Of a DNA stretch of 64,000 nucleotides, positions 14,483-35,273 are shown piece by piece. The stretch is from Spartobacteria bacterium (GTDB taxonomy: Bacteria; Verrucomicrobiota; Verrucomicrobiia; Chthoniobacterales; Chthoniobacteraceae). Within the stretch, counting starts at the first letter, position 1, and each line of letters opens with the position of its first letter. A program made the position numbers and the translations under genes. Under the pieces are notes generated by a model, which made no database searches, was not told the DNA's origin, and saw only the letters and a list, made by a program, of their open reading frames with translations. The stretch spans positions 15,825 through 79,824 of the forward strand of contig JAJPII010000029.1 in NCBI GenBank assembly GCA_021324825.1, given 5' to 3'.

Positions 14483-14573
14483 AGGGGGGAAGGGTAAAGA
14501 AGAGGGGGCGGGATGGGAAGGGCATTTTCCCGTGGCGCGTGGCGCGCATCTAGCTCACTTTTGTGGCTCATTA

Positions 14574-15815: not shown

Positions 15816-16846
15816 GGGTTCTTTTCGGCCCGGATTTCCGGCATCTGGTTCAGTACCAGCAACTGCTGGCGGACGCGCTGGGGGCGGGAGGGGTTGACGT
15901 CGAGTTTTTGCAGGGGTATCGGCGGCTCCTGCCGATGACCCGCGGGGTGCGGGCGGCGCGGCCGGATGTGTTCCACCTCCACTTCCCGGTGCACTACATT
16001 CGCTGCAACGGGAAGCTGGACGAGGCGAGGAAGTATCGCTTTTTCGCGGATGTCTGGCTGGCGGCGAGGGCGGCGCGTCTTGTTTATACGGTTCACGATC
16101 TTTACCCGACCAGCTACGCGCAGGATAAGGCCGGCAACGCGGGGCAGCATTATCTGCTGCGGCGGGCGGCGGGGCTGATCGTCCATTCGGAGGAGGCTCT
16201 GAAGCAAGTTCTGGAGATTGGGGGCGTTCCGGCGGAGAAATGCACGGTCATCCCGCATGGCGATCTTTCGGCGCCGATGGGGCAGCCCATCCCCCGCGCG
16301 CTGGCACGCGCGCAGGCGGGGTTCCAGGAGGGGGAACGCATCTGCCTCGCGCCGGGGATAGTGACGCCCAACAAGGGGCTGGAGGAATTGATCGCTTACT
16401 GGAAACGGGAGAAGCCGGATGCCATCCTCCTGATCGCCGGGCACGCCCACGACGGCGGCTACGGCCAGCGGCTGAACATGCTCGCCTCCGGGGTTGCGAA
16501 TGTCCGCCTGCGGCTCGGGTTCGTCTCCGACTACGATCTGAAGGTGCTCTTCTGCGCGGCGGATTGCGTGGTCATCAATTACCGGACGATCTTCACCTCG
16601 GGCGTGGCGAGTCTGGCGCGTTCCTTCGGGACGCCCCTGCTGCTGCCGGAACGGCTGAAGACGGTGCATCTGCTGGAGCCGCATCCTTCGGTGGTGCGAT
16701 TTGGCGAAGGGGACTTCGGGGTGAAGCTGGCGGAGACTCTTTCGCTCACGACGGATTACGCCGCCGCGGAGGAATGGCGGAATGCGACCGCCTGGGACAA
16801 GGTCGCCGCCAGGACGCGGGCGGTCTATGAATCCGTGACTTCGTAA
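15812..16846 (+). CDS. GT-B fold glycosyltransferase (GT1/GT4-like)
   Basis: ORF 15779..16846. The start at 15812 (MRVLFGPDF) overlaps the upstream stop (ATGA). The C-terminal half (PNKGLEELI...LLIAGH...FCAADCVVINY) is typical of retaining GT-B enzymes. Its 3' end overlaps the convergent PPTase gene by 22 nt. Confidence 0.6.
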   Translation: MRVLFGPDFRHLVQYQQLLADALGAGGVDVEFLQGYRRLLPMTRGVRAARPDVFHLHFPVHYIRCNGKLDEARKYRFFADVWLAARAARLVYTVHDLYPTSYAQDKAGNAGQHYLLRRAAGLIVHSEEALKQVLEIGGVPAEKCTVIPHGDLSAPMGQPIPRALARAQAGFQEGERICLAPGIVTPNKGLEELIAYWKREKPDAILLIAGHAHDGGYGQRLNMLASGVANVRLRLGFVSDYDLKVLFCAADCVVINYRTIFTSGVASLARSFGTPLLLPERLKTVHLLEPHPSVVRFGEGDFGVKLAETLSLTTDYAAAEEWRNATAWDKVAARTRAVYESVTS

Positions 16847-17454
16847 GAGCGAACGGCGAGCGGTTTTCCCGCGACGACCACGGCGGCGGCGTAGCGGGCT
16901 CCGAGTTCGGGTTCGAAGAGCGACCACCGGGCTTCCTCGAGCGCGGAAGCGACGTCGATTTCCTCCGGGGGAAGGGAAAAGCCTTTGCCGACAGCCTTGA
17001 GGTAGGCCTCCTTGCGCGTCCATAGCTTGAAAAAATCCTCGCCTTCGGAAAGCAGGGCGCGCTCCCGGGGCGCAAAGACATTTTCCAGGGCGGGGAAGCC
17101 GGGCCTTCGAAATTCCACGTCGGCGCCAAGTTCCATTTCCCGGGAGAACGCGAAGAGGGCGAGGCTTTCGGAATGGGACATATTGAACTTCAAGGTCCCG
17201 CCGTCCAAGGCCGGTTTGCCATAAGGCGAACGGATGAAAAGCGGCTCCGCGCCCAGCCAGGATGCGAGCAGGAACCGCAACCACCCGTGCGCGGCGATGA
17301 AGCGCGCCCGGTGACCGGGAAAGCGGAAGCGCGACGCGCGGGCGGCTTCCCCGGAGTCAAGCGTGCGCTCGAATCTCCGCAGGGCGTCTTCCTCGAGGTC
17401 GAGGCGGGCGTGGACGACGTGGACTTCGCCGTCCGCGAGTTGCGGCGGAGTCAC
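16825..17454 (-). CDS. 4'-phosphopantetheinyl transferase, Sfp type
   Basis: 209-aa ORF. Motifs FNMSHSESLALFAFS, GADVE and WTRKEAYLKAVGKG. The GTG start overlaps the upstream stop (GTGA at 17451-17454). It is the last gene of the NRPS-PKS operon. Confidence 0.8.
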   Translation of the reverse strand: MTPPQLADGEVHVVHARLDLEEDALRRFERTLDSGEAARASRFRFPGHRARFIAAHGWLRFLLASWLGAEPLFIRSPYGKPALDGGTLKFNMSHSESLALFAFSREMELGADVEFRRPGFPALENVFAPRERALLSEGEDFFKLWTRKEAYLKAVGKGFSLPPEEIDVASALEEARWSLFEPELGARYAAAVVVAGKPLAVRSYEVTDS

Positions 17455-19967
17455 GCGGAGGCGTCCAGGCAGGCTTGCAGACGCTCCGTCAGGACGGTGA
17501 GATTCGAATAAACGGTGATCGCGGTGAAATGCCCGCCCGGCACCACGTGGACGGTCAGGCGCCTTACCACCGTTTTCCAGTTGAAGGTCGGATCCTCGCA
17601 GCGGATGCCGGGGTCCGGCTCGCTTTGCCGCAGGAGAAAGACCTTCCCGTCATAACGCCGGGGGATGTAGGCGCAGACCGCTTCGCGATACGTCCGCGAA
17701 ACGTCGAACTTCTGTTCCACCGGCTCCCCGGGGGCTTCGCCCGCCGGACGCGGGGCGAACAGCCTGCCGATGCGCCGGAGAATGCGCCCGGTTTTCCTCC
17801 GGATGCGGGCGAAGGCCGTGGCGGCGTCCGATTGCACGATATCGCGCAGGGCGGCCATGTGGTGGCGGAAGGAGGCGTTCGCGAAGATGCACGCCTGGCG
17901 CCATTTCAGGAAGAGCAACTGGCGGGAGCGGTCATTCATCCGGTGCATGCCGCCCCAGAGAGCCACGGCGGTGAGAAGCGGCTTGAACTGGATGTTGATC
18001 GCATCCACCAGGACGAGGATTAGGCAGGCGACTTTCTTTCCCTGCGCCTCCAGTTGCCGCGCCATCTCGAAGGCCACCAGGCCGCCGTTGCAGTAACCGC
18101 CCAGGTAGTACGGGCCGTCCTTCTGCATCTCGAACAGGATTTTCAGCCGGGAAGCGGCCATCGCCTCTATCGTCTCGGGCGCGGGCCGTCCGTCCCAGCC
18201 GTGGGGGTCGATCTTGTAGAAAGGGCGGTCTTTCCTCATGCGGCGGGCCAGGTTTATACAGTAGAGGCCGCCGTCCAGGAAATCGCCGTGCAAAAAGAAA
18301 AACGGCGGCTTCGTCCCCTCGGCCTGCACCTTGGTCACGGCGAAGAACTCCGAAAGGTGCTCGATGGTCGCGCCGTGGGACAACGCATCGGGCGTCAATT
18401 TGCGGCCGATGATCTTCTCGACCCGCGCGCACATCGTGGCGGCCAGGGCCGGGCTGCCTCCCAATTGGAAAAAATCGTCGGTTATCCCAACGGGGCGCGC
18501 GTGGAGGAGGTCTTCCCATATCTCGACGAGACGCTCCTGCATCCAGCCTTGCGGCGGGATGCAGGGGCGGTCGCGCGGCGGGGTTCCGTCGGCCTCGCCC
18601 GGAGCAAGGCGGCGTCCCCTGCCCGTCACGAGAAGCGGCAGTTCGGAAAGGCGGGCGTGCGGCGCGGCGACGACGGCTTCCAGCAAGCCGTTGAAATGCG
18701 TGCCGATGAGCCGGATGCGCTCGGCGTCAAAGATGTCGGTATTGTAGTTGAGGGCGCCGTCGATCCCGTCGGCGCGTTCGGAGAGCGAGAGCGTCAATTC
18801 GTATTTCGCCACGGGGCTGTCGATGGAGACGGGAGAGAGGGTCAGGTTTCCCATGGGCCGGCCGGAACGCGGCGCCGCGCGCAGGGAAAAGAGCGCACGG
18901 CAGGGCGGGATGGAATCGGCTTCCTCCAGGAGCATCTCGCACGGAAGGTCCTGGTTATCGTAAGCGCCCTGGACGGTGTCGCGCACCCGGCCAAGGAAGT
19001 CGGCGAAGCGGGGATCGCCCGCAAGGCTCGTCCTGAGCAGCAGGGTGTTTTCAAAGAGCCCGATGAGACCTTCCACGCCCGGCTGCGACCGGTTCGCCAC
19101 GGGCGAGCCGACGACGATGTCCTCCTGGCCGCTGTACCGGGAGAGGAGAGAATAGAACGCCGCCAGGAGCAGGGAAAACAACGTGACCCCCTGCTCTCTT
19201 CCCAGCGCGCGCAAGTCCTCCACCAGGGCCGCGGTCAGATCGAACCGCTCCGTAGCGCCCTGGAAATCCCGCTGGACGGGACGCGGGTGATCGGAAGGCA
19301 ACTGGAGCGCGGGCGCGCCGCGCAGGCGTTCTTTCCACCAGGCGAGTTGCCTGGTTATCTCCTCGTTCTGCACCGCGGCGCGCTGCCATTCCGCGAAATC
19401 CCCGTATTGGATCGGGAGTTCCGGCAGCGGGGAAGGCAGGCCCGCGTCGAACGCCTCGTAGAGCGCGGCCAGCTCGCGTTCCAGGACTTCGCGCGAAGCC
19501 GCGTCGGTAATGATCTGGCTGCTGTTGACCAGGAGGATGTGTTCGCGCTCGTCCAGGCAGAGGAGCCGCGCCCGGAACAACGGCGCCTCCCGCAGGTCGA
19601 ACGGGGTCTGCACTTCCTCGTCAATGAGCCGCTCGGCCTCGGCGCGCCGCTTTCCGGCGTCGAGGATGCGCAGATCGACGGCGGGCAGGAGAAGGGGCTT
19701 CGGCGGGAAGACGAGTTGAACCGGCCTCCCCTCGACGGAATTGAAGGCGGTGCGGAGGATTTCATGCCGGCGCGCGATTTCGGAGATCGTCTTCTCAAGG
19801 GCCGGGACGTTCAGCGGCCCTTCGAGGCGGAAGGCTTCCGGCATGTTGAAGGGAGCCGACCAGAGGCGCTGCTGCGGGTAGGAGGCGGCGAAGACAAAAA
19901 TGTCCTCGGTGTTCGCGTCGGCCACTCCGCCCGTCCATTGATGGGACGAAAGATCGGGGCGGCTCAT
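17451..19967 (-). CDS. NRPS release protein: degenerate condensation-like domain, degenerate carrier-like domain, thioesterase with Cys nucleophile
   Basis: 838 aa.
- C-like domain, aa 20-445 (nt 18633-19910): C1 motif YPQQRLW is present, but the C3 motif reads SQIITDAAS (nt 19494-19520) instead of HHxxxDG.
- Carrier-like domain, aa 475-545 (nt 18333-18545): DDFFQLGGSPALAA, so Pro sits at the canonical Ser position.
- Alpha/beta TE, aa 553-830 (nt 17478-18311): FFFLHG, nucleophile elbow GYCNG (Cys626 = TGC at 18090-18092), GGHFT His813. Confidence 0.85.
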   Translation of the reverse strand: MSRPDLSSHQWTGGVADANTEDIFVFAASYPQQRLWSAPFNMPEAFRLEGPLNVPALEKTISEIARRHEILRTAFNSVEGRPVQLVFPPKPLLLPAVDLRILDAGKRRAEAERLIDEEVQTPFDLREAPLFRARLLCLDEREHILLVNSSQIITDAASREVLERELAALYEAFDAGLPSPLPELPIQYGDFAEWQRAAVQNEEITRQLAWWKERLRGAPALQLPSDHPRPVQRDFQGATERFDLTAALVEDLRALGREQGVTLFSLLLAAFYSLLSRYSGQEDIVVGSPVANRSQPGVEGLIGLFENTLLLRTSLAGDPRFADFLGRVRDTVQGAYDNQDLPCEMLLEEADSIPPCRALFSLRAAPRSGRPMGNLTLSPVSIDSPVAKYELTLSLSERADGIDGALNYNTDIFDAERIRLIGTHFNGLLEAVVAAPHARLSELPLLVTGRGRRLAPGEADGTPPRDRPCIPPQGWMQERLVEIWEDLLHARPVGITDDFFQLGGSPALAATMCARVEKIIGRKLTPDALSHGATIEHLSEFFAVTKVQAEGTKPPFFFLHGDFLDGGLYCINLARRMRKDRPFYKIDPHGWDGRPAPETIEAMAASRLKILFEMQKDGPYYLGGYCNGGLVAFEMARQLEAQGKKVACLILVLVDAINIQFKPLLTAVALWGGMHRMNDRSRQLLFLKWRQACIFANASFRHHMAALRDIVQSDAATAFARIRRKTGRILRRIGRLFAPRPAGEAPGEPVEQKFDVSRTYREAVCAYIPRRYDGKVFLLRQSEPDPGIRCEDPTFNWKTVVRRLTVHVVPGGHFTAITVYSNLTVLTERLQACLDASA

Positions 19968-22900
19968 AGAGTCGCCCGCGTGACGCGCCTTGCCGCGCGC
20001 GAGATTCCCACGATGGGCGGAAGCGCCTTGCGTCCGCCGGCGGTTTCCGGCTTCGCGGCAAACGGGTTCTCATAACCGAACTCGGAGGCCATGTTCCAGG
20101 TGGCGGCGCTTAGGAAGTCTTCCGCGTATTCGGCCTTCCATTGGTCGGCGACGTCGGGGCGGACTTCGTTGAACTTCAGGAAATTATGATCCCCCACTTG
20201 CGGCGAGAGCGGATGTATCCCGTCGGTCATCTTCTTCTGCTTGTCCTTGTACGGCTCGATCATCCCCGGGTGAAACGCGATTCCCAGGAACCGGCAGACG
20301 GCTTCCATCGCCGGCCGCGGGTCGCCCACGATGTCTTCAAACCGCACCCGATGCCGCCGCTGCGCCGGGATGCCCGAAAGAAACTCGCGGATGTTTTGAT
20401 GGGAGATCAGCCAGGTCAGCTCGCCCAGCCGCCGGGCGGAGAAATTCTGTTTATGCCGGTACGGAGATTCGAGGATGAACCGCCCTTTCTCATAGGAACG
20501 GATCATGCCCAGCGGGTGGCGAAGCAGGTGGATGTAGAGCGCGTCGTCGAACCACTCCTCGGCGCGCCGGAGGACGTCGAGGTCCATGGCGTAGTCGGGC
20601 GATTTGTCCACCAGAACCTTCGGGGCCACCCACTCCTGCATCTGCCGGTAGAACTCCTGCACGGAAGAGCCCGCGTTTTCCAGTTCCTCCATGATCCTGC
20701 CCGCCTCGTCCATGTCGCACCCCTTTATCTCCATGACGGCGCGCAGGACGCCCTCGAGCATGTATTTGTCGTAGCCGGTATAGACCTTCTTGCGCGTCGC
20801 GAGGTTCTGGAACCCCAGGAGCTGCAATTCCGGCGGGGCGAACAACGCCGGGTTGCCCGCGAGCATTATCCTGCACAGGGTCGAGCCGGAACGCATCGGG
20901 CTGAGAATGAAGACGGCGCGCGGATTTTTCCTCTTCGCGGGGACGGCGGCGGATTCGACCGGGCGGACGGACTGGACGATGAGGCGCAACTTCTCTTCAT
21001 CCCCTCCCCCGGCGGACTCGGGCGCTTTCGTCTCCGGCGCGGTTCCGAAAACCCGGCGGACGCTCTTCTCGTAATTCGTCTCCAACAAGCCGGAAAGCTC
21101 CGCGAGCGTCGGCGCTTCGAAAAGGACGACCAGGGCGACGTGTTCATCCAGCAAAGCCTGGAGCTTTTGGACGAACCGCAATCCAAGGAGGGAGTTGCCC
21201 CCCATCTCGAAGAAGTTTTCATGTAATCCTATGCGGTCCAGGCCGAGGTTCTCTTTCCACATCTCCGCGAGCTTCGCCTGGAGCGGGGTCAGCGCCGCTT
21301 CCGCGGTCTCCCGGAAGACGGCGGCCGCGGGCGCGGGCAGGGACCGGCGATCCACCTTGCCGTTGGCGGTCAGCGGCAGCGCCTTTAGCGAGACGAAGGC
21401 GGAGGGGATCATGTATTCGGGGAGATGATGCTTGAGGGCGCTCCTCAAAGCGGTCGAGAGGTCTTCTCCTTCGTTTTTCGGGACGACGTACGCCACGATC
21501 CGCTTGTCCCCCACCCTGTCCTCGCGGGCGAGGACGACCGAGTCCTTGACCAAGGGCTGCCGCTCGAGCGCGGCGTTGATCTCGTCCAGCTCGATCCGGA
21601 ACCCGCGGACCTTTACCTGGAAGTCGATGCGCCCCATGTAAAGGATGTTGCCGTCCGTTGTCCACTTCGCGAGATCGCCCGTGCGATAAAGCCGGCCTCC
21701 GGGGCTGAACGGATCGGGGATGAATTTCTCGTTCGTCAGTTCGGGCCTGCCCCAGTAACCGCGCGCGAGGCCCGCGCCTCCTATATATAACTCCCCCGCC
21801 ACGCCCACCGGCACGGGCTGAAGCCTGCCGTCGAGCAGATAGATGGCGGTGTTGGCTATGGGCCGCCCTATGGGCACGACTTCCGATTCCCGCCTGCAAG
21901 TCCAGTGCGTGACGTCGACAGAGGCCTCCGTCGGGCCATAAAGGTTGTGAAGCCGGGCGCGCAGGACGGAGAAAAACCGTTCCTGAAGATCATGGGAAAG
22001 CGCTTCGCCGCTGCAGATGACATCGCGCAGGGCGGCGCATTTCCCCGCGTCCCGCGCTTCGAGGAAAACGGCCAGCATGGGCGGGACGAAGTGGATGACG
22101 GTTATCCCCTCCCCCATGATCGTCGCGGCGAGGTAATCGCTGTCCTGGTGGCCGCCGGGCTTCGCCATGACCAGCCGCGCCCCCGCGAGCAAAGGCCAGA
22201 AGAACTCCCATACCGAAACGTCGAAACTGAACGGCGTCTTCTGAAGGACGCGGTCTTCCGCGCCGAGGCGGTACGCGTCCTGCATCCAGAGAAGGCGGTT
22301 GCAGATGCCGGAGTGCGTGTTCATGGCGCCCTTCGGCTTGCCGGTGGAACCCGAGGTGTAGATGACGTACGCCAGGTTCTCCGGCCTGGTTGCGGAGGTT
22401 GGCGCTTCGGTTGATTCGCGCGCGATGGCGGACCAGCCCGCGTCCAGGCAGACGACCTCCGCGGAGTGCGGGGGCAGGCTGAGGCGCTCCTGCGTCAGGA
22501 GAACGGGGATGCGCGCGTCGGCGATCATGAAGGCCAGGCGCTCCGGCGGGTAACCGGGGTCGAGCGGCACGTAAGCGCCCCCGGCCTTCAGGATGCCGAG
22601 CAGGCCGGTCACCATCTCCAGGGAGCGTTCCATGCAGACGCCGACCGGCGAATCGGGGCCGATCCCCTTCCCTTGCAGGTAACGCGCCAGCTGATTCGCC
22701 CGGCGGTCCAGCTCCCGGTACGTGAGGCTCTTCTTTTCGAAAACGACGGCCACGGCGTCCGGCGTCCGCCTCGCCTGTTCCTCGATGAGGCGGTGCAGGA
22801 GCGCGTCCTTGGGATAATCGACGCAGGTGTCGTTCCACCGGACGAGGATCTGGTTGCGCTCGACCTCGTTCAGGAGCGGGAGATCGCGCACGTCGCGCGC

Positions 22901-25900
22901 GGCGTCGGCGACGACTCCTTCGAGGATCGTCTTGAAATGGCCCAGCCAGCGCAGGACGGTTTCGGGGTCGTAAAGGTCGCTGTTGTGGTCGCACTCGATG
23001 TCGAGCGCGCCGTCCTTCTCGGCGGCGTTCAGGTAAAGCTCGGCCATCGCGGTCGTGGCGGGGCCGCGATACGGCACGTGGCGGGTCAGCAATTCGACGT
23101 GGAGGCCGTCGAGGTTCTTGCGGAACTCCCCGCTTTCGAAGTTGAAGATGGTCGAGAAAATCGGCGCGCGGGCGGGGTCGCGCGGCAGGCGCATCGCATC
23201 GAGCAGCCGCCCGAAGAAGTAGTTCTGGCGCTCGGAAGCGCCGAGCACGAGATTCTTCATGCCGGTCATGTAATCGGCGAACGGCGCCTTCCCGTCGATG
23301 CGGCTCCGTATCGGCAGGACGTTGGTCGTGTTCGCGAACAGGGACGGCCCGCCCTCGAGCGTGCGGACGTCATCCTCGAACGGAACGCCGATGACCACGT
23401 CATCCTGCCCGCTGAGGCGATGCAGCAGGACGCCGAACGCCGCGAGGAGCACGTTGAAAAGCGAACAGCGCCGCGCGGCGGCGGCATGCCTCAAAGCGCG
23501 CGTGAACTCCGCGTCGAGCGTCAGCGTCTGCCGCTGCCCGCGGAACGTCAGGAAGTTCGGGCGGGGACGGTCGGCGGGCAGTTCCAGGACGGGGACGCCG
23601 CCCTTGAATTGCGCCAGCCAGTACGCTTCCGCCTCGGCGGCGTCCTCGCGGCGCCGGGCGTCCCGCGCGATGAATTCGCTCAACTGCATCGCGGGCGGCA
23701 GCGTCTTCACGCCGGAGTAAAGCGCGCAGAGTTCCTCCAGGAAAACCCAGTAGGAAGGGCCGTTCCCCATAACGTGATGGAAGGTCAGCAGGAGCAAATG
23801 CTCCTTCTCGTTGACGTTCAAAAGAGCCGCGCGGAAAAACGGCCCTTTCAGCTTCTCGAAAAGTTCGTTCTCGATCGGGAAAAGAGCCTCGGGCTCTCCC
23901 GAAAGTTCGCGGAAATCGACTGTTCCGGCAGGAGCGATGTTCTGGGAGGAACCGTCCTCCGAAATCGTGGCGCGCAACGCTTCGTGGCGACCCGCCAGCG
24001 CCTGCAGGGCCGCGCGCAAAGCCGCGACATCCAGCGGGCCGCGAAGGCTGAGCGTAACCGATTCGTGATAGGCCCGCGCCGCCTGGTCATCCATGCCGGA
24101 AATCCATAAGCCCTGTTGCGCGGGCGTCAAAGGCAATGTGCGCGCGGCGGGGGTCTTCTCGTAGCGGCTCTTCAGTTCGCTTAGGGTTGTAAGGCTTTGC
24201 AGGACGGAACGAGTATCAATTCCGAAGTCGATGAAGCACCCCACCTCGTCCACTCCGATTCCCGCCAGGCGATCCATGACGCGCGCGCAGGAATCGGGCG
24301 TGCCGATCAGCGCCTTGCCCTCGACGTAATCCGTGAACGCAGTATCCAGGAGGTATTCGATGTCCGCGGGATCGACCTCGACCTGGCCGCCTTCGCTCTC
24401 CATTTTCTTGCGGCTGTTGTCCAGGAACGAACGGAGATATTCGCGGAGCGGCCCCCGCGCGGTCTCGCGGGCCGCCGCGAGGTCCGGGCCGACAAACGTG
24501 TGCAGGAGGATCGTCACATGGCCGGCGGCCGGGTCGTGCCCGTGCCGGACGAGGGAGTCGCGGTACAGGGCGATCTTTTCCGCGACCTCCTCCACCTTCT
24601 GGTTCATGAGGTAGCCGAGAACGCCGACGCCCATCTCGCCCGCCTTGACGAACGAGTCCGGGTGGATGCATGTGAGCCATATCGGAAGGTCCTTCCGCAT
24701 CGGCAGCGGGTGGAGCTTCACCTGCACGTCGTTGCCCGCGCCGCCCTTCATCGGGACGGCCTCCCCTCGCCAGAGCTTCCTGACCGTTTCCAGACCTTCG
24801 AAACAAAGCTCGCGCCGCCGGTCGAACGCCGCGGGAGCGAAGATGAAGTCGTTCGGATGCCAGCCCGAGGCGATGGAAAGCCCGGTGCGGCCCTTCGAGA
24901 GATTATCGACGACCGACCACTCCTCCGCGATGCGCGCGGGATGGTGCAGCGGGAAGACCACGCTGCCGCCCCGAAGCTGGATTTGCCCGGTCTCCCGCGC
25001 AAGGGCGGCGGCCAGCACGGAGGGATTCGGCGAAAACCCGCCCACCGCGTGGAAATGGCGTTCCGGCAGCCAGACGGCGGTGAACCCATGTTTGTCCGCG
25101 AATTTGGTTGCTTCAAAGAGGAGGTCGTATTTATCCGGCTGGAAGCCCGCCTCATAGTTGCCGAAGAAATAGAGGCTGAACTGCACCCCGGACTTCGCGG
25201 GTCCGGGTCTCGGAACGGGAGGAGCGACAGGAACCGGCTCCAGGCGAGGCGGAGGAGCGGGAGGGGTTTCCGATTCTTCGCCGGGAAGAAAACCTCCCGC
25301 CTTCATTTCCAGCACGCTCTCCTTGAACGCGCGGATGACGAACTCGACATCGGCCTCCGTATGCGCGGTCGAGAGGAAGCAGGGGCGGCCTTCCCAGACG
25401 TGGACGCCTTTTTCGCGCAGATGGAAGAAGAGCAGGCTCGGATACTTTATCTCCGGGCTGAAATCGAAATAGAAGAGGGAGCGGAACCAGATGATCCGCA
25501 GCGGCGCCTGCCGCTCCGCGAAGAAGGCGTTCAGCGTCCCGGCGAAACGCGCGGTTCGCGCGGCGAGTTCCTCCTGAAGGCCGGGGCCGGATTTCTTCAA
25601 ATGTTCGAGGATGGCGGACGCGGCGGCCATCGCGAGCGGATGGCGCACATAGGTGCCCGCGAAGAACGTCACGCCGACCTCGGGGAACGAGGCGTCGCCG
25701 TAATCCCACGCGCCGCCGTCCAGGGCGTCCATGTATTCCGCGCTGCCGCAGAGCGCGCCGATGGGCATGCCGCCGCCGATGATCTTCCCGTAGGTCGCCA
25801 GGTCGGCCCGGATGCCAAAGAGCGCCTGCGCCCCGCCCGGATGCGAACGGAACCCGGTGATGACCTCGTCGAAAATGAGCGCCGTTCCCGCTTCCTTCGT

Positions 25901-28900
25901 GATGCGCCGGACTTCCCTGAGAAAATCGACCGGCTGGATGTCGGGATGCCTGCTCTGCACCGGCTCGACAAGCACCGCCGCCAGTTCTCCCACGACCGAC
26001 TTCAATACCTCCAGCGAATGCGCGGCGCCCCATTCCAGGATGCAGACCTCGCTCACCGCGTGCGCCGGGATGCCGGGCGCGATCGGAACCGCGCGGTTGT
26101 CCGCGGCGGGGCGGACGAGAACCTCGTCGCAAATACCGTGGAAGGCGCCGGACATCGTGGCGATCTTCGTGCGGCCCGTGACGGTGCGGGCCAGCCGTAT
26201 CGCCGCGAGCACCGCTTCCGACCCGGTGTTGCAAAACGCGGCCCGCTCCATGCCGGTCAACTCGCACATCAGTTTGGCGACCTTCCCAGCGACGGACGAT
26301 TGCGGCCCGACCTCCACGCCGCGGTCAAGCTGCTCGCGGATGGCGTCCGTGACGAACGACGGCGAATGCCCGAGGATGTTGGTGCCGAACCCCATCGTGA
26401 CATCGACGTATTCGTTGCCGTCCACGTCCCACAGCCGCGCGCCCGACGAGCGGGTCGCCACAACCGGGTAAACCATCTCCTTCCAGAACGGCCGGAACCC
26501 CGCGACGGTGCGCGGATCGGCGAAGTGGCGGCGGTTCTCCTTGGTATAGCGCTTCGACCCCGGGGTGCGCTTCACGTAACGCGCGACGAGCGCGTCGAGA
26601 TGCGCCTGCTGGCGCGGCGTGAACCCCGCGCCCGCCGTCTTGTCGATCGGCTTGTAAGGGCCGAAGAACTTCGGTTTCTCAGGCTGGGAGGGATGCGCGG
26701 CGGGGACTTTAGGGGGAGGTTGTCCGCCGCGCATCGCCTCAATCTGTTTCGTCATCTCCTGCAACTGCCGGGCCATGCCGTCGAGCGCCGATTCCGCGGG
26801 CGCGGCGGGCGCGGGCGCCTGCTCGCGCGGCAACTGGGCGTCGAGGAAGTCCGCGATCGCGTCCAGTGAGGAGAGTTCTTCCAACAGTTGCCGGAAGGTT
26901 ATCTTGACGTTGAATTTTTTACGGAACGCCTGCGCCGCCTGCGTGAGGAAGAGCGAGTCGAATCCCAGTTCGAAAAAGCTCGCGGCGGGGTCCAGTTCGG
27001 AGCGGTCGCGGCCCGAGATATCCTTGAGGACATCCGTGAGCGTCGAGACGATCCCCTCCTTGCGGCCTGCCGTCGAGACGGCGGCTGCCGGTCCGGGCGC
27101 GCCCGGTTTTTCCACCGGCGCGGACGCATTCGGCGGCTCGACGTAATGTCGCGTCCTCTCAAAGGAATACGCGGGGAGATGAACCCGCCGCCGTTGTTCG
27201 CGCGCATGGAAACCGGCCCAATCCACCTGCGCGCCGTTCAGCCAAAGCTGGCCGAGGGCGCCCAGCATGGAAGCGGTCTCCCCGGACGCCGCGAGCGACG
27301 GGATGACAGCCTGCTCCTTCTTTTTGGCGGGATGCTGCCGGGCGAACGTCGCCAGCGACTGGCCCGGCCCCACTTCGAGAAGGACGCGCTCCGGCTCGCG
27401 GACGAGGGTTCCCATGCCGTCGAAAAAGCGGACCGTTTCGCGCAGATGACGCGCCCAATAGGCGGGGCTGGTCGCCTGCTCCGGCGTTATCCAGTCCGCG
27501 GTGAGATTCGAGATATACGGGATCGCGGGCGCGTGAAGGGGCGTCTTCCTCACCAGTTCGGTGAACGGCTCGAGGATGGGATCGAGCATGGCCGAATGGA
27601 ACGCGTGGGACGTGCACAACGGCTTGGAAGCGACGCCCGCCTCCTCCAGCTTCATCCGCAACGCCGCGAGGCGCGTTTCCGGGCCGGAAACGACGCAAAG
27701 CGAAGGGCCGTTCACGGCGGCTACCGCGACATCCTCCGCGAGCCAGGGACCGAGCTTCCCCTCTTCCAGCCGGACGGCGAGCATCGCGCCCGAGGGCAAT
27801 TCCTGCATGAGCCGCGCGCGCCGGGCAAGCAGGACGAGGCCGTCCTCGAGTGAAAAGACGCCCGCGAGGCAGGCGGCGACGTATTCGCCGACGCTGTGGC
27901 CGATCATGGCCTTGGGGCGGATGCCCCACGACATCCAGAGGGTCGCGAGCGCGTATTCCACGGTGAAAAGCGCGGGCTGCGTCACGGAGGTCTGGCCCAG
28001 CCGTTGCGCGGCTTCCGTCTCCGCGCCCTCGACAGGGAAAAGCGCCTCGCGCGGATCCGCGCCAAGGCTCTCGATGAGAATGCGGGAACAGCGGTCGATG
28101 GCTTCGCGGAAGACCGACTCGGTCCGGTAAAGCTCGCGGCCCATATTGACGTACTGGGTCCCCTGCCCCGGAAACAGGAAAACGACGGGCGGCTCGGCGG
28201 AAGGAGCCGTCTTCGTCATCCACTTCTCCGGGATCGCCGTGGAATTGGCGACAACCGCCCTGCGATGCGGAAATGCCTGCCGGCCCGTTTGCAACGTCCA
28301 CGCGGCATCCGCCAGGTTGGTTTCCGGATTGGCTTTCATGTAGCCGGTGAGATTCGCCGCGGCCCGGTCGAGCGCCGCTTCGCTCTTGGCCGAAAGGAGC
28401 AATAGCTGCGAGGAGCGCGAATGTGTCGCGGGGCCGGGATCGGGCGCTTCCTCCAGGACGACGTGGGCGTTCGTGCCCCCCACCCCGAACGAACTGACGC
28501 CCGCGCGGCGCGGCGTCGGGCCGGCCTTCCATTCGGCCAGCTTGCGGTTGACGTAGAACGGGCTGTTCGCGAAGTCGATGCGGGGATTCGGGGCCTCGAA
28601 ATGGAGGCTGGGCGGTATGAGCTTGTGGCGCAGCGAGAGCGCCATCTTTATAAGCCCGCAGACCCCGGCGGCGACTTCAAGATGGCCGACGTTCGTCTTG
28701 ACCGAGCCGATGGCGCAATGGCTCCCGCCGCGCGACCGGAACGCCTGGGTCAGCCCGGCGATCTCGATGGGGTCGCCCATCGGCGTGGCGGTGCCGTGCG
28801 CCTCGACGCAAGTGATCGACTCGGGCTGGAACCCCGCCATCTCCTGCGCCAGGGCTATCACCTCCGCCTGCCCCGAAGCGCTCGGCGCGGTGTAGCCGAC

Positions 28901-29770
28901 CTTGGCCGAACCGTCGTTGTTCAGGGCGAACCCTTTTATGACCGCGTAGATGCTGTCGCGGCCGGCGAGCGCATCCTCCAGGCGCTTCAGGACGACGACG
29001 CCCGCGCCGTCGCCGAAGACCGTTCCCGACGCCCGGGCGTCGAACGCGCGGCACTTGCCGTCGGCGGAAGCGAGGCTCCCTTCCTGGTGGAGATAGCCGC
29101 GATGCCGCGGAAACGAAATGGAAACGGCCCCCGCCAGCGCCGCGTCGCACTGGTAGTTCAGGAGGCTCTGGCACGCCTGGCTCACGACCACGAGCGAGGT
29201 CGAGCACGCCGACTGGATGGTCATGCTCGGCCCGCGCAGGTCGAGCTTGTAAGAAACCCGCGTGGAGAGGTAGTCCTTGTCGTTGCCGAGAAGATATTCG
29301 TACCCGGTGACCTGGTGGCCGCCGACGAGTTCCTCGATGAATTTCCTGTCCGCGCACAGATTCGCCAGCAGGTAAGTGTTCAGGCTCACCCCCGCATAAA
29401 CGCCGATGGAGCCATGGAAGCGCGCGGGGTCGCACCCCGCATCCTCCAGCGCCTGCCACGCCGTTTCGAGAAAGACGCGGTGCTGGGGATCGGTCAGGTC
29501 GGCCTCGCGCGGATTGTATCCGAAAAAGGCGGAGTCGAAGCACTCGGGGTCGCGGAAGAGAGAGCGCGCGCGGACGTAGCCTGGGTTGTCGAGAAGGGCC
29601 TGGCTGACGCCCGCCGCGCGCAGATCCGCTTCCGAGAAATGCGAGATGGCATCGACTCCCTCGCACAAATTCCGCCAGAACTGCCCGATGTCGTCCGCGC
29701 CGGGGAAACGGCCGGCCATTCCCACGATGGCAATGCCTTCCTGGGACTCTGCTTTTGGAACATCACTCAT
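19964..29770 (-). CDS. Hybrid PKS-NRPS megasynthase: KS-AT-ACP-aminotransferase-LLM monooxygenase-C-A-PCP-sulfotransferase
   Basis: 3268 aa, with ATGA overlaps to both neighbours. Motif-based domain map (aa / nt):
- KS 12-440 / 28451-29737: TIQSACSTS Cys189, EAHGTAT, KTNVGHLE.
- AT 528-850 / 27221-28189: GHSVGE, HAFH (malonyl type).
- ACP 905-980 / 26831-27058: LGFDSL.
- Class III PLP aminotransferase 1040-1490 / 25301-26653: NTGSEAV, YGKIIGGG.
- Luciferase-like monooxygenase 1528-1870 / 24161-25189: FSLYFFGNY, WLPERHF.
- C 1878-2300 / 22871-24139: HHVMGNG.
- A 2320-2815 / 21326-22813: YTSGSTGKPKG, FDVSVWEFF, NLYGPTEASVDV, YRTGD, VKVRGFRIEL.
- PCP 2826-2895 / 21086-21295: GGNSL.
- Sulfotransferase 2948-3215 / 20126-20929: SPMRSGSTL at nt 20876-20902. 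Confidence 0.95.
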   Translation of the reverse strand: MSDVPKAESQEGIAIVGMAGRFPGADDIGQFWRNLCEGVDAISHFSEADLRAAGVSQALLDNPGYVRARSLFRDPECFDSAFFGYNPREADLTDPQHRVFLETAWQALEDAGCDPARFHGSIGVYAGVSLNTYLLANLCADRKFIEELVGGHQVTGYEYLLGNDKDYLSTRVSYKLDLRGPSMTIQSACSTSLVVVSQACQSLLNYQCDAALAGAVSISFPRHRGYLHQEGSLASADGKCRAFDARASGTVFGDGAGVVVLKRLEDALAGRDSIYAVIKGFALNNDGSAKVGYTAPSASGQAEVIALAQEMAGFQPESITCVEAHGTATPMGDPIEIAGLTQAFRSRGGSHCAIGSVKTNVGHLEVAAGVCGLIKMALSLRHKLIPPSLHFEAPNPRIDFANSPFYVNRKLAEWKAGPTPRRAGVSSFGVGGTNAHVVLEEAPDPGPATHSRSSQLLLLSAKSEAALDRAAANLTGYMKANPETNLADAAWTLQTGRQAFPHRRAVVANSTAIPEKWMTKTAPSAEPPVVFLFPGQGTQYVNMGRELYRTESVFREAIDRCSRILIESLGADPREALFPVEGAETEAAQRLGQTSVTQPALFTVEYALATLWMSWGIRPKAMIGHSVGEYVAACLAGVFSLEDGLVLLARRARLMQELPSGAMLAVRLEEGKLGPWLAEDVAVAAVNGPSLCVVSGPETRLAALRMKLEEAGVASKPLCTSHAFHSAMLDPILEPFTELVRKTPLHAPAIPYISNLTADWITPEQATSPAYWARHLRETVRFFDGMGTLVREPERVLLEVGPGQSLATFARQHPAKKKEQAVIPSLAASGETASMLGALGQLWLNGAQVDWAGFHAREQRRRVHLPAYSFERTRHYVEPPNASAPVEKPGAPGPAAAVSTAGRKEGIVSTLTDVLKDISGRDRSELDPAASFFELGFDSLFLTQAAQAFRKKFNVKITFRQLLEELSSLDAIADFLDAQLPREQAPAPAAPAESALDGMARQLQEMTKQIEAMRGGQPPPKVPAAHPSQPEKPKFFGPYKPIDKTAGAGFTPRQQAHLDALVARYVKRTPGSKRYTKENRRHFADPRTVAGFRPFWKEMVYPVVATRSSGARLWDVDGNEYVDVTMGFGTNILGHSPSFVTDAIREQLDRGVEVGPQSSVAGKVAKLMCELTGMERAAFCNTGSEAVLAAIRLARTVTGRTKIATMSGAFHGICDEVLVRPAADNRAVPIAPGIPAHAVSEVCILEWGAAHSLEVLKSVVGELAAVLVEPVQSRHPDIQPVDFLREVRRITKEAGTALIFDEVITGFRSHPGGAQALFGIRADLATYGKIIGGGMPIGALCGSAEYMDALDGGAWDYGDASFPEVGVTFFAGTYVRHPLAMAAASAILEHLKKSGPGLQEELAARTARFAGTLNAFFAERQAPLRIIWFRSLFYFDFSPEIKYPSLLFFHLREKGVHVWEGRPCFLSTAHTEADVEFVIRAFKESVLEMKAGGFLPGEESETPPAPPPRLEPVPVAPPVPRPGPAKSGVQFSLYFFGNYEAGFQPDKYDLLFEATKFADKHGFTAVWLPERHFHAVGGFSPNPSVLAAALARETGQIQLRGGSVVFPLHHPARIAEEWSVVDNLSKGRTGLSIASGWHPNDFIFAPAAFDRRRELCFEGLETVRKLWRGEAVPMKGGAGNDVQVKLHPLPMRKDLPIWLTCIHPDSFVKAGEMGVGVLGYLMNQKVEEVAEKIALYRDSLVRHGHDPAAGHVTILLHTFVGPDLAAARETARGPLREYLRSFLDNSRKKMESEGGQVEVDPADIEYLLDTAFTDYVEGKALIGTPDSCARVMDRLAGIGVDEVGCFIDFGIDTRSVLQSLTTLSELKSRYEKTPAARTLPLTPAQQGLWISGMDDQAARAYHESVTLSLRGPLDVAALRAALQALAGRHEALRATISEDGSSQNIAPAGTVDFRELSGEPEALFPIENELFEKLKGPFFRAALLNVNEKEHLLLLTFHHVMGNGPSYWVFLEELCALYSGVKTLPPAMQLSEFIARDARRREDAAEAEAYWLAQFKGGVPVLELPADRPRPNFLTFRGQRQTLTLDAEFTRALRHAAAARRCSLFNVLLAAFGVLLHRLSGQDDVVIGVPFEDDVRTLEGGPSLFANTTNVLPIRSRIDGKAPFADYMTGMKNLVLGASERQNYFFGRLLDAMRLPRDPARAPIFSTIFNFESGEFRKNLDGLHVELLTRHVPYRGPATTAMAELYLNAAEKDGALDIECDHNSDLYDPETVLRWLGHFKTILEGVVADAARDVRDLPLLNEVERNQILVRWNDTCVDYPKDALLHRLIEEQARRTPDAVAVVFEKKSLTYRELDRRANQLARYLQGKGIGPDSPVGVCMERSLEMVTGLLGILKAGGAYVPLDPGYPPERLAFMIADARIPVLLTQERLSLPPHSAEVVCLDAGWSAIARESTEAPTSATRPENLAYVIYTSGSTGKPKGAMNTHSGICNRLLWMQDAYRLGAEDRVLQKTPFSFDVSVWEFFWPLLAGARLVMAKPGGHQDSDYLAATIMGEGITVIHFVPPMLAVFLEARDAGKCAALRDVICSGEALSHDLQERFFSVLRARLHNLYGPTEASVDVTHWTCRRESEVVPIGRPIANTAIYLLDGRLQPVPVGVAGELYIGGAGLARGYWGRPELTNEKFIPDPFSPGGRLYRTGDLAKWTTDGNILYMGRIDFQVKVRGFRIELDEINAALERQPLVKDSVVLAREDRVGDKRIVAYVVPKNEGEDLSTALRSALKHHLPEYMIPSAFVSLKALPLTANGKVDRRSLPAPAAAVFRETAEAALTPLQAKLAEMWKENLGLDRIGLHENFFEMGGNSLLGLRFVQKLQALLDEHVALVVLFEAPTLAELSGLLETNYEKSVRRVFGTAPETKAPESAGGGDEEKLRLIVQSVRPVESAAVPAKRKNPRAVFILSPMRSGSTLCRIMLAGNPALFAPPELQLLGFQNLATRKKVYTGYDKYMLEGVLRAVMEIKGCDMDEAGRIMEELENAGSSVQEFYRQMQEWVAPKVLVDKSPDYAMDLDVLRRAEEWFDDALYIHLLRHPLGMIRSYEKGRFILESPYRHKQNFSARRLGELTWLISHQNIREFLSGIPAQRRHRVRFEDIVGDPRPAMEAVCRFLGIAFHPGMIEPYKDKQKKMTDGIHPLSPQVGDHNFLKFNEVRPDVADQWKAEYAEDFLSAATWNMASEFGYENPFAAKPETAGGRKALPPIVGISRAARRVTRATL

Positions 29771-32631: not shown

Positions 32632-32645
32632 GAAGAAGAAATTTA

Positions 32646-32696
32646 ACCACGGATAACACGGATAGCACGGATGAAGGGCTCGTTCTTATCCGTGGT
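32646..32696 (-). terminator. Intrinsic terminator of fic with a triplicated 9-mer arm
   Basis: On the minus-strand RNA, ACCACGGAUAA...UUAUCCGUGGU is followed by UAAAUUUCUUCUUC. The plus strand shows cacggataa cacggatag cacggatga in tandem (32648-32674) facing the inverted ttatccgtgg (32687-32696). Confidence 0.55.
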
Positions 32697-32706
32697 CTCC
32701 TAACTC

Positions 32707-33750: not shown

Positions 33751-33779
33751 TTCTCTATGTATATCACCAATTCATTTAG

Positions 33780-33830
33780 TGATCAAGTTAAAAGCGTTTG
33801 ATCATTATCATGAATTTTCCATTTGATCAT
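33780..33830. promoter_or_regulatory. Candidate fic promoter/operator with three TGATCA palindromes
   Basis: The 82-bp AT-rich intergenic region has TGATCA at 33780-33785 and TTTGATCAT at both 33797-33805 and 33822-33830, upstream of the fic start at 33750. Confidence 0.4.
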
Positions 33831-33832
33831 GT

Positions 33833-35259: not shown

Positions 35260-35273
35260 GAAGGGCGCAGTCT

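What the first reader, a model, noticed from the sequence alone, without database searches (positions are those of the whole stretch)
20126..20929. CurM-type sulfotransferase domain fused behind an NRPS carrier, possibly activating a PCP-bound seryl hydroxyl
Seen in sequence:
- The last ~320 aa of the megasynthase follow the PCP (GGNSL).
- They contain [32 protein letters not shown]. This is a PAPS 5'-phosphosulfate loop plus the LAGxPxLFxPPELxLL block that I recall from the CurM/OLS ST domains.
- The preceding A domain has the FDVSVWEFFWP / CSGEAL / NLYGPTEASVDV core pattern that I associate with the EntF (serine) clade.

Established knowledge: in CurM the ST sulfonates the beta-hydroxyl of the ACP-bound chain, so that the TE can hydrolyse and decarboxylatively eliminate sulfate to give a terminal alkene.

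Inference: a seryl thioester also carries a beta-hydroxyl. O-sulfonation on the PCP could therefore set up elimination (dehydroalanine), decarboxylative elimination (a terminal enamide) or ring closure (beta-lactam or aziridine). I know of no ST placed in cis after an NRPS module.
Basis: partly seen in the sequence, partly recalled or inferred. Interest (0 to 1): 0.82.

Follow-up and report, generated by a model that had tools for sequence, protein, structure and literature searches.

The report
Sulfotransferase domain fused to NRPS module

Summary
Residues about 2950-3240 of the 3268-aa protein at window 19964-29770 (-) form a CurM/OLS-family sulfotransferase (ST). It sits directly behind the carrier domain (PCP) of a serine-type module whose specificity code is DVWHISLVDK.

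- The cluster has three translationally coupled genes: A(Pro)-PCP | KS-AT-ACP-AmT-LLM-C-A(Ser)-PCP-ST | C*-PCP*-TE(Cys).
- The thioesterase (TE) is not CurM-like. It sits on the next protein, behind a degenerate but still selected C-PCP pair.
- The window ST belongs to a monophyletic clade found only in this PuwE-like architecture.
- In sister loci the residue next to the ST is Gln-type (N-methylated) or Val-type. The ST there keeps its catalytic motifs, shares clade-specific segments and is under purifying selection.

The shared acceptor is therefore more likely the proline-derived 3-amino-2-hydroxy unit than the Ser hydroxyl.

In-cis STs behind NRPS modules are also not unique. A metagenome scan found many, mostly after Thr, Ser or Tyr modules, and the cyanopeptolin synthetase OciA is a published precedent.

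I could not decide whether the sulfate is kept or serves as a leaving group. I class this as a new variant of a known kind, of moderate to high interest.

The parts
29767..31539 (-). Loading didomain A-PCP (590 aa). The specificity code DVQFIAHVVK is proline-like. Its stop overlaps the start of the megasynthase (ATGA).
   Evidence: Pfam AMP-binding, AMP-binding_C and PP-binding. NCBIfam TIGR01733 amino-acid adenylation domain, 358.8 bits against a cut-off of 317.4, so this is not a fatty acyl-AMP ligase. Code extraction. Overlap.
19964..29770 (-). Hybrid PKS/NRPS megasynthase, 3268 aa: KS-AT-ACP-AmT-LLM-C-A-PCP-ST.
   Evidence: Translation. Pfam. NCBIfam.
26843..29740 (-). PKS module: KS (residues 11-392, active-site Cys in ACSTS), AT (530-826, GHSVGE and HAFH, the malonyl type) and ACP (910-976). 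There is no KR.
   Evidence: motifs.
25304..26470 (-). Class-III (GSA-type) aminotransferase domain, residues about 1095-1489.
   Evidence: Pfam Aminotran_3, E 4.9e-49. NCBIfam hits.
24170..25180 (-). FMN-dependent luciferase-like monooxygenase domain (MupA/Atu3671 family), residues 1531-1867.
   Evidence: TIGR04020, 466.2 bits against a cut-off of 244.45. Pfam Bac_luciferase.
22844..24142 (-). Condensation domain, residues 1877-2309. Its motif is HHVMGNG instead of HHxxxDG, and this variant is conserved across the family.
21086..22783 (-). Adenylation domain (residues 2330-2805, code DVWHISLVDK, serine type) and PCP (Ser2860 in GGNSL).
20051..20914 (-). CurM/OLS-family sulfotransferase domain, residues about 2953-3240. 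It has the 5'-PSB loop PMRSGST (2958-2964), Glu2981 in PPELQLL, Lys3056 in VDKSP and the 3'-phosphate motif RHP..S (3084-3092).
   Evidence: dN/dS is 0.12 against L001.
19967..20050 (-). Basic C-terminal tail after the ST (…GRKALPPIVGISRAARRVTRATL). It is conserved in relatives and may be a docking element for the next protein.
   Evidence: 82% identity to L001. The docking role is inferred.
17451..19967 (-). C*-PCP*-TE protein (838 aa); its start overlaps the megasynthase stop (ATGA). C* (residues 40-447) has SQIITDA in place of HHxxxDG. PCP* (478-541) has GGSPA, with no Ser at the attachment position. The TE (545-838) has GYCNG, a Cys nucleophile.
   Evidence: dN/dS: C* 0.20, PCP* 0.16, TE 0.13.

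Best explanation
The region is an active PAPS-dependent sulfotransferase domain of the CurM/OLS family. It is built into the last functional module of a three-gene assembly line.

Proposed sequence of steps:
1. A stand-alone A-PCP loads proline (inferred from the specificity code).
2. KS-AT-ACP add one malonyl unit. The domains are shown; the chemistry is standard.
3. The aminotransferase and the luciferase-like monooxygenase convert the 3-oxo group into a 3-amino-2-hydroxy unit (inferred by analogy with PuwE).
4. The C domain joins this unit to Ser on the PCP.
5. The ST, tethered next to that PCP, sulfonates the carrier-bound intermediate.
6. A Cys-thioesterase on the next protein releases the chain. 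That protein's C and PCP domains have lost their catalytic His and attachment Ser but are still under selection, probably as a scaffold or dock.

I think the sulfate most likely goes on the 2-hydroxyl of the proline-derived unit, not on the Ser side chain. That unit is the only acceptor shared by every member of this ST clade.

I think retention of the sulfate (on-line tailoring that gives a small sulfated peptide) is somewhat more likely than use as a leaving group. CurM-style hydrolysis with decarboxylative elimination is unlikely.
For: Identity and integrity of the ST:
- Pfam E 3.8e-25.
- CurM ST E 5e-63 and OLS ST E 1.4e-52, with the PSB loop, PPEL Glu, VDKSP Lys and RHP..S aligned.
- These residues are invariant across 16 and 33 relatives.
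- Fold TM-score 0.93 to 4gbm.
- dN/dS 0.12.

Architecture. Both gene junctions are ATGA overlaps. PuwE has the same KS-AT-ACP-AmT-Ox-C-A-PCP order and is linked to a 3-amino-2-hydroxyacyl unit (PMC4219810).

Shared acceptor:
- The window ST falls in a monophyletic clade of 12 loci.
- All 9 clade loci that reach far enough upstream carry the LLM, against 0 of 49 outside the clade.
- The loading codes are Pro-like in the three loci where they can be read.
- The adjacent residue is Ser (window, L001, L002, L003, L006), Gln-code plus methyltransferase (L007-L010, L087) or Val-like (L013).
- All clade STs keep the catalytic motifs and share the clade-specific segments EKGRFILESPYRGRHxF(S/T)AR and SPQVGD(H/A)NF.
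- The Gln-type STs have omega 0.10-0.20.
- No hydroxylase gene lies next to the L007 or L013 clusters.

Against the CurM route:
- The TE does not match the CurM TE in the PDB.
- In L003, L007, L008, L010 and L011 a complete C-A-PCP-TE module follows the ST.

For retention:
- OciA is a precedent with a retained sulfate (PMC2533009).
- Outside the clade, in-cis STs follow Thr (21), Ser (16) and Tyr (4) modules and are mostly mid-line.
Against: - Nothing here shows sulfotransfer, the acceptor atom or the product.
- The Ser beta-hydroxyl sits at the same distance from the thioester as CurM's beta-hydroxyl. Outside this clade most in-cis STs follow hydroxy-amino-acid modules. Ser-OH therefore remains a serious candidate in the Ser-type members.
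- The acceptor could differ between subclades.
- The 2-hydroxylase role of the LLM rests on a bioinformatic proposal for PuwE.
- The Gln, Val and Pro assignments rest on specificity codes recalled from the literature, not on assays.
- Clade loci are related by descent, so the LLM and ST co-occurrence counts are not independent events.
- The only biochemically characterised members of this ST family, CurM and OLS (from my own knowledge), use the sulfate as a leaving group. A conserved Cys-TE would also fit ring-forming chemistry. Both argue against simple retention.
- No PAPS-supply genes are in the window.
Confidence: 0.45

Rival explanations
1. The ST O-sulfonates the PCP-bound seryl beta-hydroxyl to make a leaving group. 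Elimination (dehydroalanine), decarboxylative elimination (terminal enamide) or ring closure (beta-lactam or aziridine) follows, at or before release by the TE.
For: - The A code is Ser, 9 of 10 identical to EntF.
- Ser-OH is isosteric with CurM's beta-OH.
- The ST is of the CurM family.
- Outside the clade, 37 of 66 readable ST-adjacent codes are Ser or Thr, and 9 of these modules are followed directly by a TE.
- The TE has a Cys nucleophile, and in the window it is followed by Asn. A Cys nucleophile and a Cys-Asn pair are features discussed for the ring-forming SulM TE.
Against: - The TE is not CurM-like. The TEs that follow STs in other NRPS loci are not CurM-like either.
- The TE does not match SulM or ObiF TEs in the PDB search. 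Its conserved Asp lies in the usual LVLVDA position.
- Sister loci with Gln- or Val-type modules keep a constrained ST of the same clade.
- In most family members a normal elongation module follows the ST.
Confidence: 0.2
2. Activation on the conserved unit. The ST sulfonates the 2-hydroxyl next to the 3-amine (or near the pyrrolidine N). The neighbouring nitrogen then displaces the sulfate to give an aziridine or azetidine, a Wenker-type closure on the assembly line.
For: - AmT, LLM and ST always co-occur in the clade, whatever the downstream residue.
- To my knowledge, the characterised members of the family use the sulfate as a leaving group.
- Sulfation followed by aziridine closure has a published precedent: Kurosawa et al. 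2022, cited in PMC9570651.
- The Cys-TE is conserved in all family members.
Against: - No AziU2/U3-like cyclase or other accessory enzyme is in the three-gene cluster.
- In most members the intermediate would have to survive a further condensation cycle.
- The argument is purely inferential.
Confidence: 0.2
3. N-sulfonation. The ST makes a sulfamate on the 3-amine or on the pyrrolidine nitrogen, as SulN does on PCP-bound diaminopropionate in sulfazecin biosynthesis.
For: - Free amines are predicted on the conserved unit.
- Sulfonation of a PCP-bound amine followed by a Cys-TE has a precedent in SulN and SulM (PMC11298585).
Against: - The closest solved relatives are O-sulfotransferases acting on secondary alcohols.
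- The TE lacks the SulM criteria other than Cys-Asn.
Confidence: 0.07
4. The ST is catalytically dead or purely structural in this lineage, like the neighbouring degenerate C and PCP domains.
For: - The next protein shows that domains can decay here.
- CurM His62 is replaced by Gln.
Against: - All PAPS-binding and catalytic residues that are invariant in the family are kept.
- Position 62 varies across the family: E, Q, H, L, D or Y.
- dN/dS is 0.12, as low as for KS, AmT and LLM.
Confidence: 0.05

Closest known systems
CurM ST (curacin A) and OLS ST (Synechococcus PCC 7002 olefin synthase), PDB 4gbm and 4gox
   Same: - Same sequence family and fold (E 5e-63 and 1.4e-52; TM-scores 0.93 and 0.92).
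- Same PAPS loop, Glu and Lys.
- Same placement directly after a carrier domain.
   Different: - The carrier here is an NRPS PCP loaded by a Ser-type A domain, not a PKS ACP preceded by a KR.
- There is no fused CurM-type TE.
- His62 is Gln.
- Two segments are clade-specific: EKGRFILESPYR… and SPQVGDHNF. They coincide with the lower-confidence parts of the model.
- The acceptor is probably not a KR-made beta-hydroxyl.
PuwE of the puwainaphycin pathway (KS-AT-ACP-AmT-Ox-C-A-PCP)
   Same: - Same domain order from KS to PCP.
- The aminotransferase-monooxygenase pair is proposed to make a 3-amino-2-hydroxyacyl unit (PMC4219810).
   Different: - The starter is proline on an A-PCP didomain, not a fatty acid on FAAL and ACP.
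- An ST is appended.
- The assembly line is very short: one or two amino acids.
OciA sulfotransferase domain in the Planktothrix cyanopeptolin/oscillapeptin synthetase
   Same: A sulfotransferase domain integrated in an NRPS and acting as an on-line tailoring step (PMC2533009).
   Different: - There it accompanies a glyceric-acid loading domain at the start of the line.
- Sequence relatedness to the window ST was not tested.
SulN/SulM (sulfazecin) and ObiF Cys-thioesterases
   Same: - Sulfonation of a PCP-bound intermediate before release.
- A TE with a Cys nucleophile (PMC11298585).
   Different: - SulN acts in trans and N-sulfonates diaminopropionate.
- The window TE does not match the SulM or ObiF TEs by sequence.
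- Its Asp is in the usual position.
Sulfation-dependent aziridine formation in the azinomycin/vazabitide pathways (Kurosawa et al. 2022)
   Same: A vicinal amino alcohol plus a sulfotransferase acting on a carrier-bound intermediate would give the same type of precursor.
   Different: - No homologue of the dedicated cyclase was seen.
- The carrier system is different.
- The link is an inference only.

Membership tests
CurM/OLS-type carrier-linked sulfotransferase domains | Sequence and fold homology to the CurM and OLS ST domains | tested here: met
   phmmer E 5e-63 and 1.4e-52. Foldseek target TM-scores 0.93 and 0.92. Pfam PF13469 E 3.8e-25.
CurM/OLS-type carrier-linked sulfotransferase domains | PAPS-binding motifs (5'-PSB loop PxRSGST; 3'-phosphate motif RHP…S), and the Glu and Lys aligned with CurM Glu60 and Lys133. 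The residue numbering is recalled from the CurM ST structure paper. | tested here: met
   PMRSGST 2958-2964, Glu2981, Lys3056 and RHP..S 3084-3092. All are invariant.
CurM/OLS-type carrier-linked sulfotransferase domains | His aligned with CurM His62 | tested here: not met
   It is Gln here (PPELQLL). Among 120 relatives the position is E, Q, H, L, D or Y, so it is not a family-wide requirement.
CurM/OLS-type carrier-linked sulfotransferase domains | Placed directly after the carrier domain that holds the acceptor | tested here: met
   PCP (GGNSL, 2857-2861) is followed by the ST from about residue 2950.
CurM/OLS terminal-alkene off-loading unit (ACP-ST-TE) | A fused, dedicated CurM-type TE directly after the ST | tested here: not met
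   The ST ends the protein. The TE is on the next protein, behind C*-PCP*. It has a Cys nucleophile. The CurM TE is not among 56 PDB matches up to E 10.
CurM/OLS terminal-alkene off-loading unit (ACP-ST-TE) | A KR-made beta-hydroxyacyl thioester as acceptor | tested here: not met
   There is no KR in the megasynthase. The candidate acceptors are Ser-OH, the LLM-made 2-OH, or amines.
PuwE-like hybrid (KS-AT-ACP-AmT-Ox-C-A-PCP) | [quoted passage not shown] | tested here: met
   Description of PuwE in PMC4219810.
PuwE-like hybrid (KS-AT-ACP-AmT-Ox-C-A-PCP) | Fatty-acid starter delivered by FAAL and ACP | tested here: not met
   The upstream gene passes the TIGR01733 amino-acid adenylation cut-off. 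Its code DVQFIAHVVK is Pro-like.
SulM/ObiF-type ring-forming Cys thioesterases | Cys nucleophile | tested here: met
   GYCNG in the window. Cys is present in all 11 family TEs examined.
SulM/ObiF-type ring-forming Cys thioesterases | Catalytic Asp moved to position II (after beta7); Gln-Cys-Asn motif; sequence relatedness to SulTE | tested here: inconclusive
   - A conserved Asp lies in LVLVDA, at the usual place.
- The motif is Tyr-Cys-Asn.
- No SulM or ObiF TE is among the PDB hits.
- No structure of the TE was modelled.
Integrated NRPS tailoring sulfotransferase (OciA type) | ST domain within an NRPS polypeptide, with the sulfate retained in the product | not testable with these tools
   Integration is shown. 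Retention needs the product. Homology to OciA was not tested.

The most novel reading that the evidence does not exclude
The ST is the activating step of an assembly-line route to a strained or unsaturated nitrogen function. Either the 2-O-sulfate of the proline-derived 3-amino-2-hydroxy unit is displaced by a neighbouring nitrogen, giving an aziridine or a 1-azabicyclo ring in an on-line Wenker reaction. Or, in the Ser-type members, the O-sulfoseryl thioester is converted to dehydroalanine, a beta-lactam or an enamide. More broadly, the many C-A(Thr/Ser)-PCP-ST modules in soil metagenomes might be an unrecognised sulfate-dependent way of making dehydroamino acids in nonribosomal peptides.
Probability: 0.3. 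Interest if true: 0.85.

Novelty: new variant of a known kind. Interest (0 to 1): 0.6.

Why it matters
To my knowledge, CurM-type STs have been characterised only as leaving-group installers at the end of polyketide lines. Here the same domain family sits in an NRPS module of a compact three-gene cluster from uncultured Verrucomicrobia-like bacteria.

The comparison set shows that such PCP-ST fusions are common in environmental DNA, mostly behind Thr, Ser or Tyr modules. I found no biochemical study of them in the searchable literature.

The three-gene cluster is small enough to reconstitute. That experiment would show whether these domains simply decorate peptides with sulfate or open new on-line elimination or cyclisation chemistry. 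It would also give a rule for predicting products of many orphan clusters.

Tried and rejected
1. I first labelled the upstream gene FAAL-ACP and the product a lipopeptide. I rejected this after NCBIfam placed the gene above the amino-acid adenylation cut-off and the code read Pro-like.
2. I labelled the TEs that follow STs in other loci as CurM-like. I rejected this: a representative (P0035) matches ordinary NRPS and FAS TEs and not the CurM TE.
3. ORF 15758-17284 (-) looked like a fourth cluster gene. It has no Pfam hit and an Arg-rich nonsense-like translation. The conserved gene there is the opposite-strand response regulator-PP2C at 14370-15815 (+).
4. I looked for PAPS-supply genes in the window and found none. 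The nitrite/sulfite-reductase-like gene at 44572-46359 sits in a nitrate-assimilation-type cluster.
5. I tried to read the CurM ST structure paper by DOI and by a remembered PMC id. It is not held, so the CurM residue numbering rests on memory plus the 4gbm alignment.
6. Literature searches for an ST domain after an NRPS module, for sulfation-elimination to dehydroalanine, and for ST + AmT + FAAL lipopeptides found no matching study.
8. The genome-collection scan found only two close relatives, both MAGs.
Full report

Yes. The long minus-strand ORF at window 19964-29770 encodes 3268 aa. Pfam and NCBIfam give the domain order below.

| Domain | Residues | Note |
|---|---|---|
| KS | 11-392 | |
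| AT | 530-826 | |
| ACP | 910-976 | |
| Class-III aminotransferase | about 1095-1489 | |
| Luciferase-like monooxygenase | 1531-1867 | MupA/Atu3671 family, TIGR04020, 466 bits against a cut-off of 244 |
| C | 1877-2309 | |
| A | 2330-2805 | |
| PCP | around 2857-2861 | GGNSL |
| Sulfotransfer_3 | 2953-3167 | E 3.8e-25 |

- The finding's coordinates correspond to residues 2948-3215.
- The C-terminal 378 aa match the CurM ST (4gbm) at E 5e-63 over chain residues 16-313. They match the OLS ST (4gox) at E 1.4e-52. Nothing else in the PDB matches.
- An AlphaFold model (pLDDT 85.8) has target TM-scores of 0.93 to 4gbm and 0.92 to 4gox. Tyrosylprotein sulfotransferases come next, far behind.
- The alignment keeps the PSB loop (PMRSGST, 2958-2964), the Glu of PPELQLL (Glu2981), the Lys of VDKSP (Lys3056) and RHP…S. 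By my recollection of the CurM ST paper, the Glu aligns with CurM Glu60 and the Lys with Lys133.
- These residues are invariant across relatives.
- CurM His62 is Gln here. That position is E, Q, H, L, D or Y among 120 homologues, so the change does not argue against activity.
- Against the orthologue in L001 the ST has dN/dS 0.12, as low as KS, AmT and LLM.

**2. The adenylation domain**

I extracted the ten specificity positions by alignment. The window reads DVWHISLVDK. E. coli K-12 EntF, fetched and processed in the same way, reads DVWHFSLVDK.

**3. The surroundings change the picture**

- The upstream gene (29767-31539) overlaps the megasynthase start by ATGA.
- It is not a fatty-acyl ligase. 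It passes the NCBIfam cut-off for amino-acid adenylation domains.
- Its code is DVQFIAHVVK, which I recognise as one residue away from the classical proline code. The same or a near-identical code is found in L013 and L003.
- The AT has the malonyl motif HAFH, and the KS has its catalytic residues.
- From KS to PCP the megasynthase has the domain order of PuwE. There the aminotransferase and monooxygenase are held to produce a 3-amino-2-hydroxyacyl unit (PMC4219810).
- The intermediate on the PCP is therefore predicted to be (3-amino-2-hydroxy-3-(pyrrolidin-2-yl)propanoyl)-seryl thioester. It carries two hydroxyls and two amines, not just the seryl hydroxyl.

**4. Downstream gene**

- It also overlaps by ATGA. 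The gene at 17451-19967 encodes C-PCP-TE.
- Its C domain has SQIITDA in place of HHxxxDG.
- Its PCP has GGSPA, with Pro at the attachment position.
- The TE has GYCNG, a Cys nucleophile.
- The TE finds ordinary NRPS, PKS and FAS thioesterases in the PDB. The best hits are 7r0x and AB3403 (4zxh), the latter also GWCFG. It finds neither the CurM TE nor the SulM or ObiF TEs, even at E up to 10.
- The degenerate C and PCP still evolve under purifying selection (dN/dS about 0.2 and 0.06-0.16, against 0.11-0.15 for the TE; dS is near saturation, so the values are rough).

**5. Relatives**

A protein search with the ST returned 273 hits at E ≤ 1e-10. They include many carrier-ST and ST-TE fragments and at least 17 A-PCP-ST fragments.

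Genome and metagenome scans and contig look-ups gave the same cluster type in these loci:
- L001, an uncultured Verrucomicrobiae MAG, with 79% ST identity.
- L002.
- L003, a Chthoniobacteraceae MAG.
- L006-L013, L086 and L087.

Within this family the second module forms a decay series.

| Loci | State of the second module |
|---|---|
| L003, L007, L008, L010, L011 | Complete C(HHxxxD)-A(Val-like)-PCP(GGHSL)-TE |
| L002 | A-domain remnant only |
| L012 | A domain lost |
| Window, L001, L006 | A domain lost, catalytic His lost, attachment Ser lost |
| L013 | ST fused directly to the Cys-TE |

The nucleophile is Cys in every case. In the window lineage the TE must therefore take the chain from the PCP that precedes the ST.

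**6. Which group is sulfonated?**

- An NJ tree of 95 ST domains puts the window in a monophyletic clade of 12 loci.
- Every clade locus that extends far enough has the LLM (9 of 9). None of 49 loci outside the clade has it.
- Inside the clade the A domain next to the ST falls into three types:

| Code | Type | Loci | Extra domain |
|---|---|---|---|
| DVWHISLVDK | Ser | Window, L001, L006, L002, L003 | L002 has an N-methyltransferase |
| DAWQFGLIDK | Gln (the classical code, from memory) | L007-L010, L087 | Methyltransferase insert |
| DAFFVGGTFK | Val-like | L013 | None |

- All these STs keep the catalytic motifs. They share SPMRSGSTL, EKGRFILESPYRGRHxF(S/T)AR and SPQVGD(H/A)NF. Those segments differ from the consensus of other NRPS-linked STs and from CurM and OLS.
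- The last two segments coincide with the lower-confidence, probably mobile, parts of the model.
- The STs of the Gln-type loci are under purifying selection (omega 0.10-0.20).
- No hydroxylase gene lies beside the L007 or L013 clusters.
- The simplest reading is an acceptor common to all members, namely the proline-derived 3-amino-2-hydroxy unit. Its secondary 2-hydroxyl is the closest analogue of CurM's substrate.
- This is inference. Clade members are related by descent. The codes are predictions. Ser-OH, isosteric with CurM's beta-hydroxyl, cannot be excluded for the Ser-type members.

**7. The wider class**

- Outside the clade, almost all loci from the metagenome scan are C-A-PCP-ST.
- Each is followed by another C-A-PCP (38), a TE (19) or a KS (4).
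- Of 66 readable codes, 21 are the Thr code DFWN[IV]GMVHK, 16 are Ser codes and 4 are Tyr codes DAST[IVA]AAVCK. The code assignments are from memory of the published tables.
- Integrated STs behind hydroxy-amino-acid modules are therefore common in environmental DNA.
- A TE that follows such an ST (P0035) is again not CurM-like.
- In the literature I could search, OciA of the cyanopeptolin pathway has an integrated sulfotransferase with a glyceric-acid loading domain (PMC2533009).
- SulN sulfonates a PCP-bound amine in trans before a Cys-TE closes the monobactam ring (PMC11298585).
- I found no study of a CurM-type ST after an A-PCP module.

**8. Mechanism and fate of the sulfate**

The steps that are shown:
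- the domains, their order and their integrity;
- translational coupling of the three genes;
- selective constraint on the ST.

The steps that are inferred:
- the Pro starter;
- malonyl extension;
- transamination and 2-hydroxylation;
- condensation with Ser;
- PAPS-dependent sulfonation on the PCP;
- release by the Cys-TE.

Against a CurM-type decarboxylative release:
- There is no CurM-type TE.
- In most relatives an ordinary elongation module follows the ST.

For retention:
- OciA is a precedent.
- STs follow Tyr modules, where elimination is impossible.
- The STs are mostly mid-line.
- No cyclase is present.

For a leaving-group role:
- Characterised members of the family use the sulfate this way.
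- The ST always co-occurs with AmT and LLM. A vicinal amino sulfate is the precursor type used for aziridine closure in the azinomycin/vazabitide systems, cited in PMC9570651.
- The Cys-TE is conserved.

I put retention slightly ahead, but the question is open.

**9. Verdict**

The CurM-like logic, the claim of uniqueness and, probably, the acceptor are not.
- I class it as a new variant of a known kind, with interest 0.6.

Noticed in passing
L013-L085 (metagenome loci): CurM-family ST domains fused after NRPS A-PCP modules are abundant in metagenomes. Of 66 readable adjacent A codes, 21 are Thr, 16 Ser and 4 Tyr. The ST is followed by C (38), TE (19) or KS (4). Several assembly lines carry two ST domains (L057, L060, L069, L075, L078, L081).
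   Followed up: partly
window 22844-24142 (-), residues 1998-2004; L001-L003, L006-L010, L013: The C domain that follows the monooxygenase has HHxxGNG instead of HHxxxDG. This variant is conserved in all nine family members checked.
   Followed up: partly
window 17451-19967 (-): The C and PCP domains have lost the catalytic His and the phosphopantetheine Ser, yet they keep dN/dS of about 0.2 and 0.06-0.16. They are retained for some non-canonical role. Relatives form a stepwise decay series of this module.
   Followed up: yes
window 19967-20050 (-); tails of L001, L002, P0002, P0026, P0042, P0073: Many C-terminal STs end in a short basic tail (for example PPIVGISRAARRVTRATL). It may be a docking element.
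   Followed up: no
L088 4291-5988: A stand-alone 565-aa protein carries an ST of the window clade (59% identity) and an unknown 227-aa N-terminal part. It lies beside BamA/OmpH-like genes, outside any NRPS context.
   Followed up: no
window 6296-12730 (-) and 1698-6050 (-): Two giant ORFs of 2144 and 1450 aa. The first has 10 PATR (passenger-associated transport) repeats. The second has no Pfam match.
   Followed up: no
window 15758-17284 (-) versus 14370-15815 (+): The 508-aa minus-strand ORF is probably spurious. The conserved gene is the opposite-strand response regulator-PP2C/SpoIIE phosphatase, which is 73-77% identical in L001 and L006.
   Followed up: yes
window 39749-52115 (+): A nitrate/nitrite-assimilation-like cluster. 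It contains an NMT1-like binding protein, an MFS transporter, a PP2C-kinase fusion, a nitrite/sulfite reductase, a flavodoxin reductase, a Fe-S/DmsC-like protein and a molybdopterin oxidoreductase. It is unrelated to PAPS supply.
   Followed up: no
L003 15707-21749; L013 11802-19208: In two family members the cluster is followed by glycosyltransferases, a hexapeptide transferase and an ABC-2 exporter. L003, L007, L086 and L087 have a PPTase right after the TE gene. The window has none of these.
   Followed up: no
window 31555-38408 (-): Upstream neighbours are an MscS-type channel, a Fic-domain protein, a NAGPA-like protein and an SNF2-family helicase. They do not appear to be part of the cluster.
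   Followed up: no
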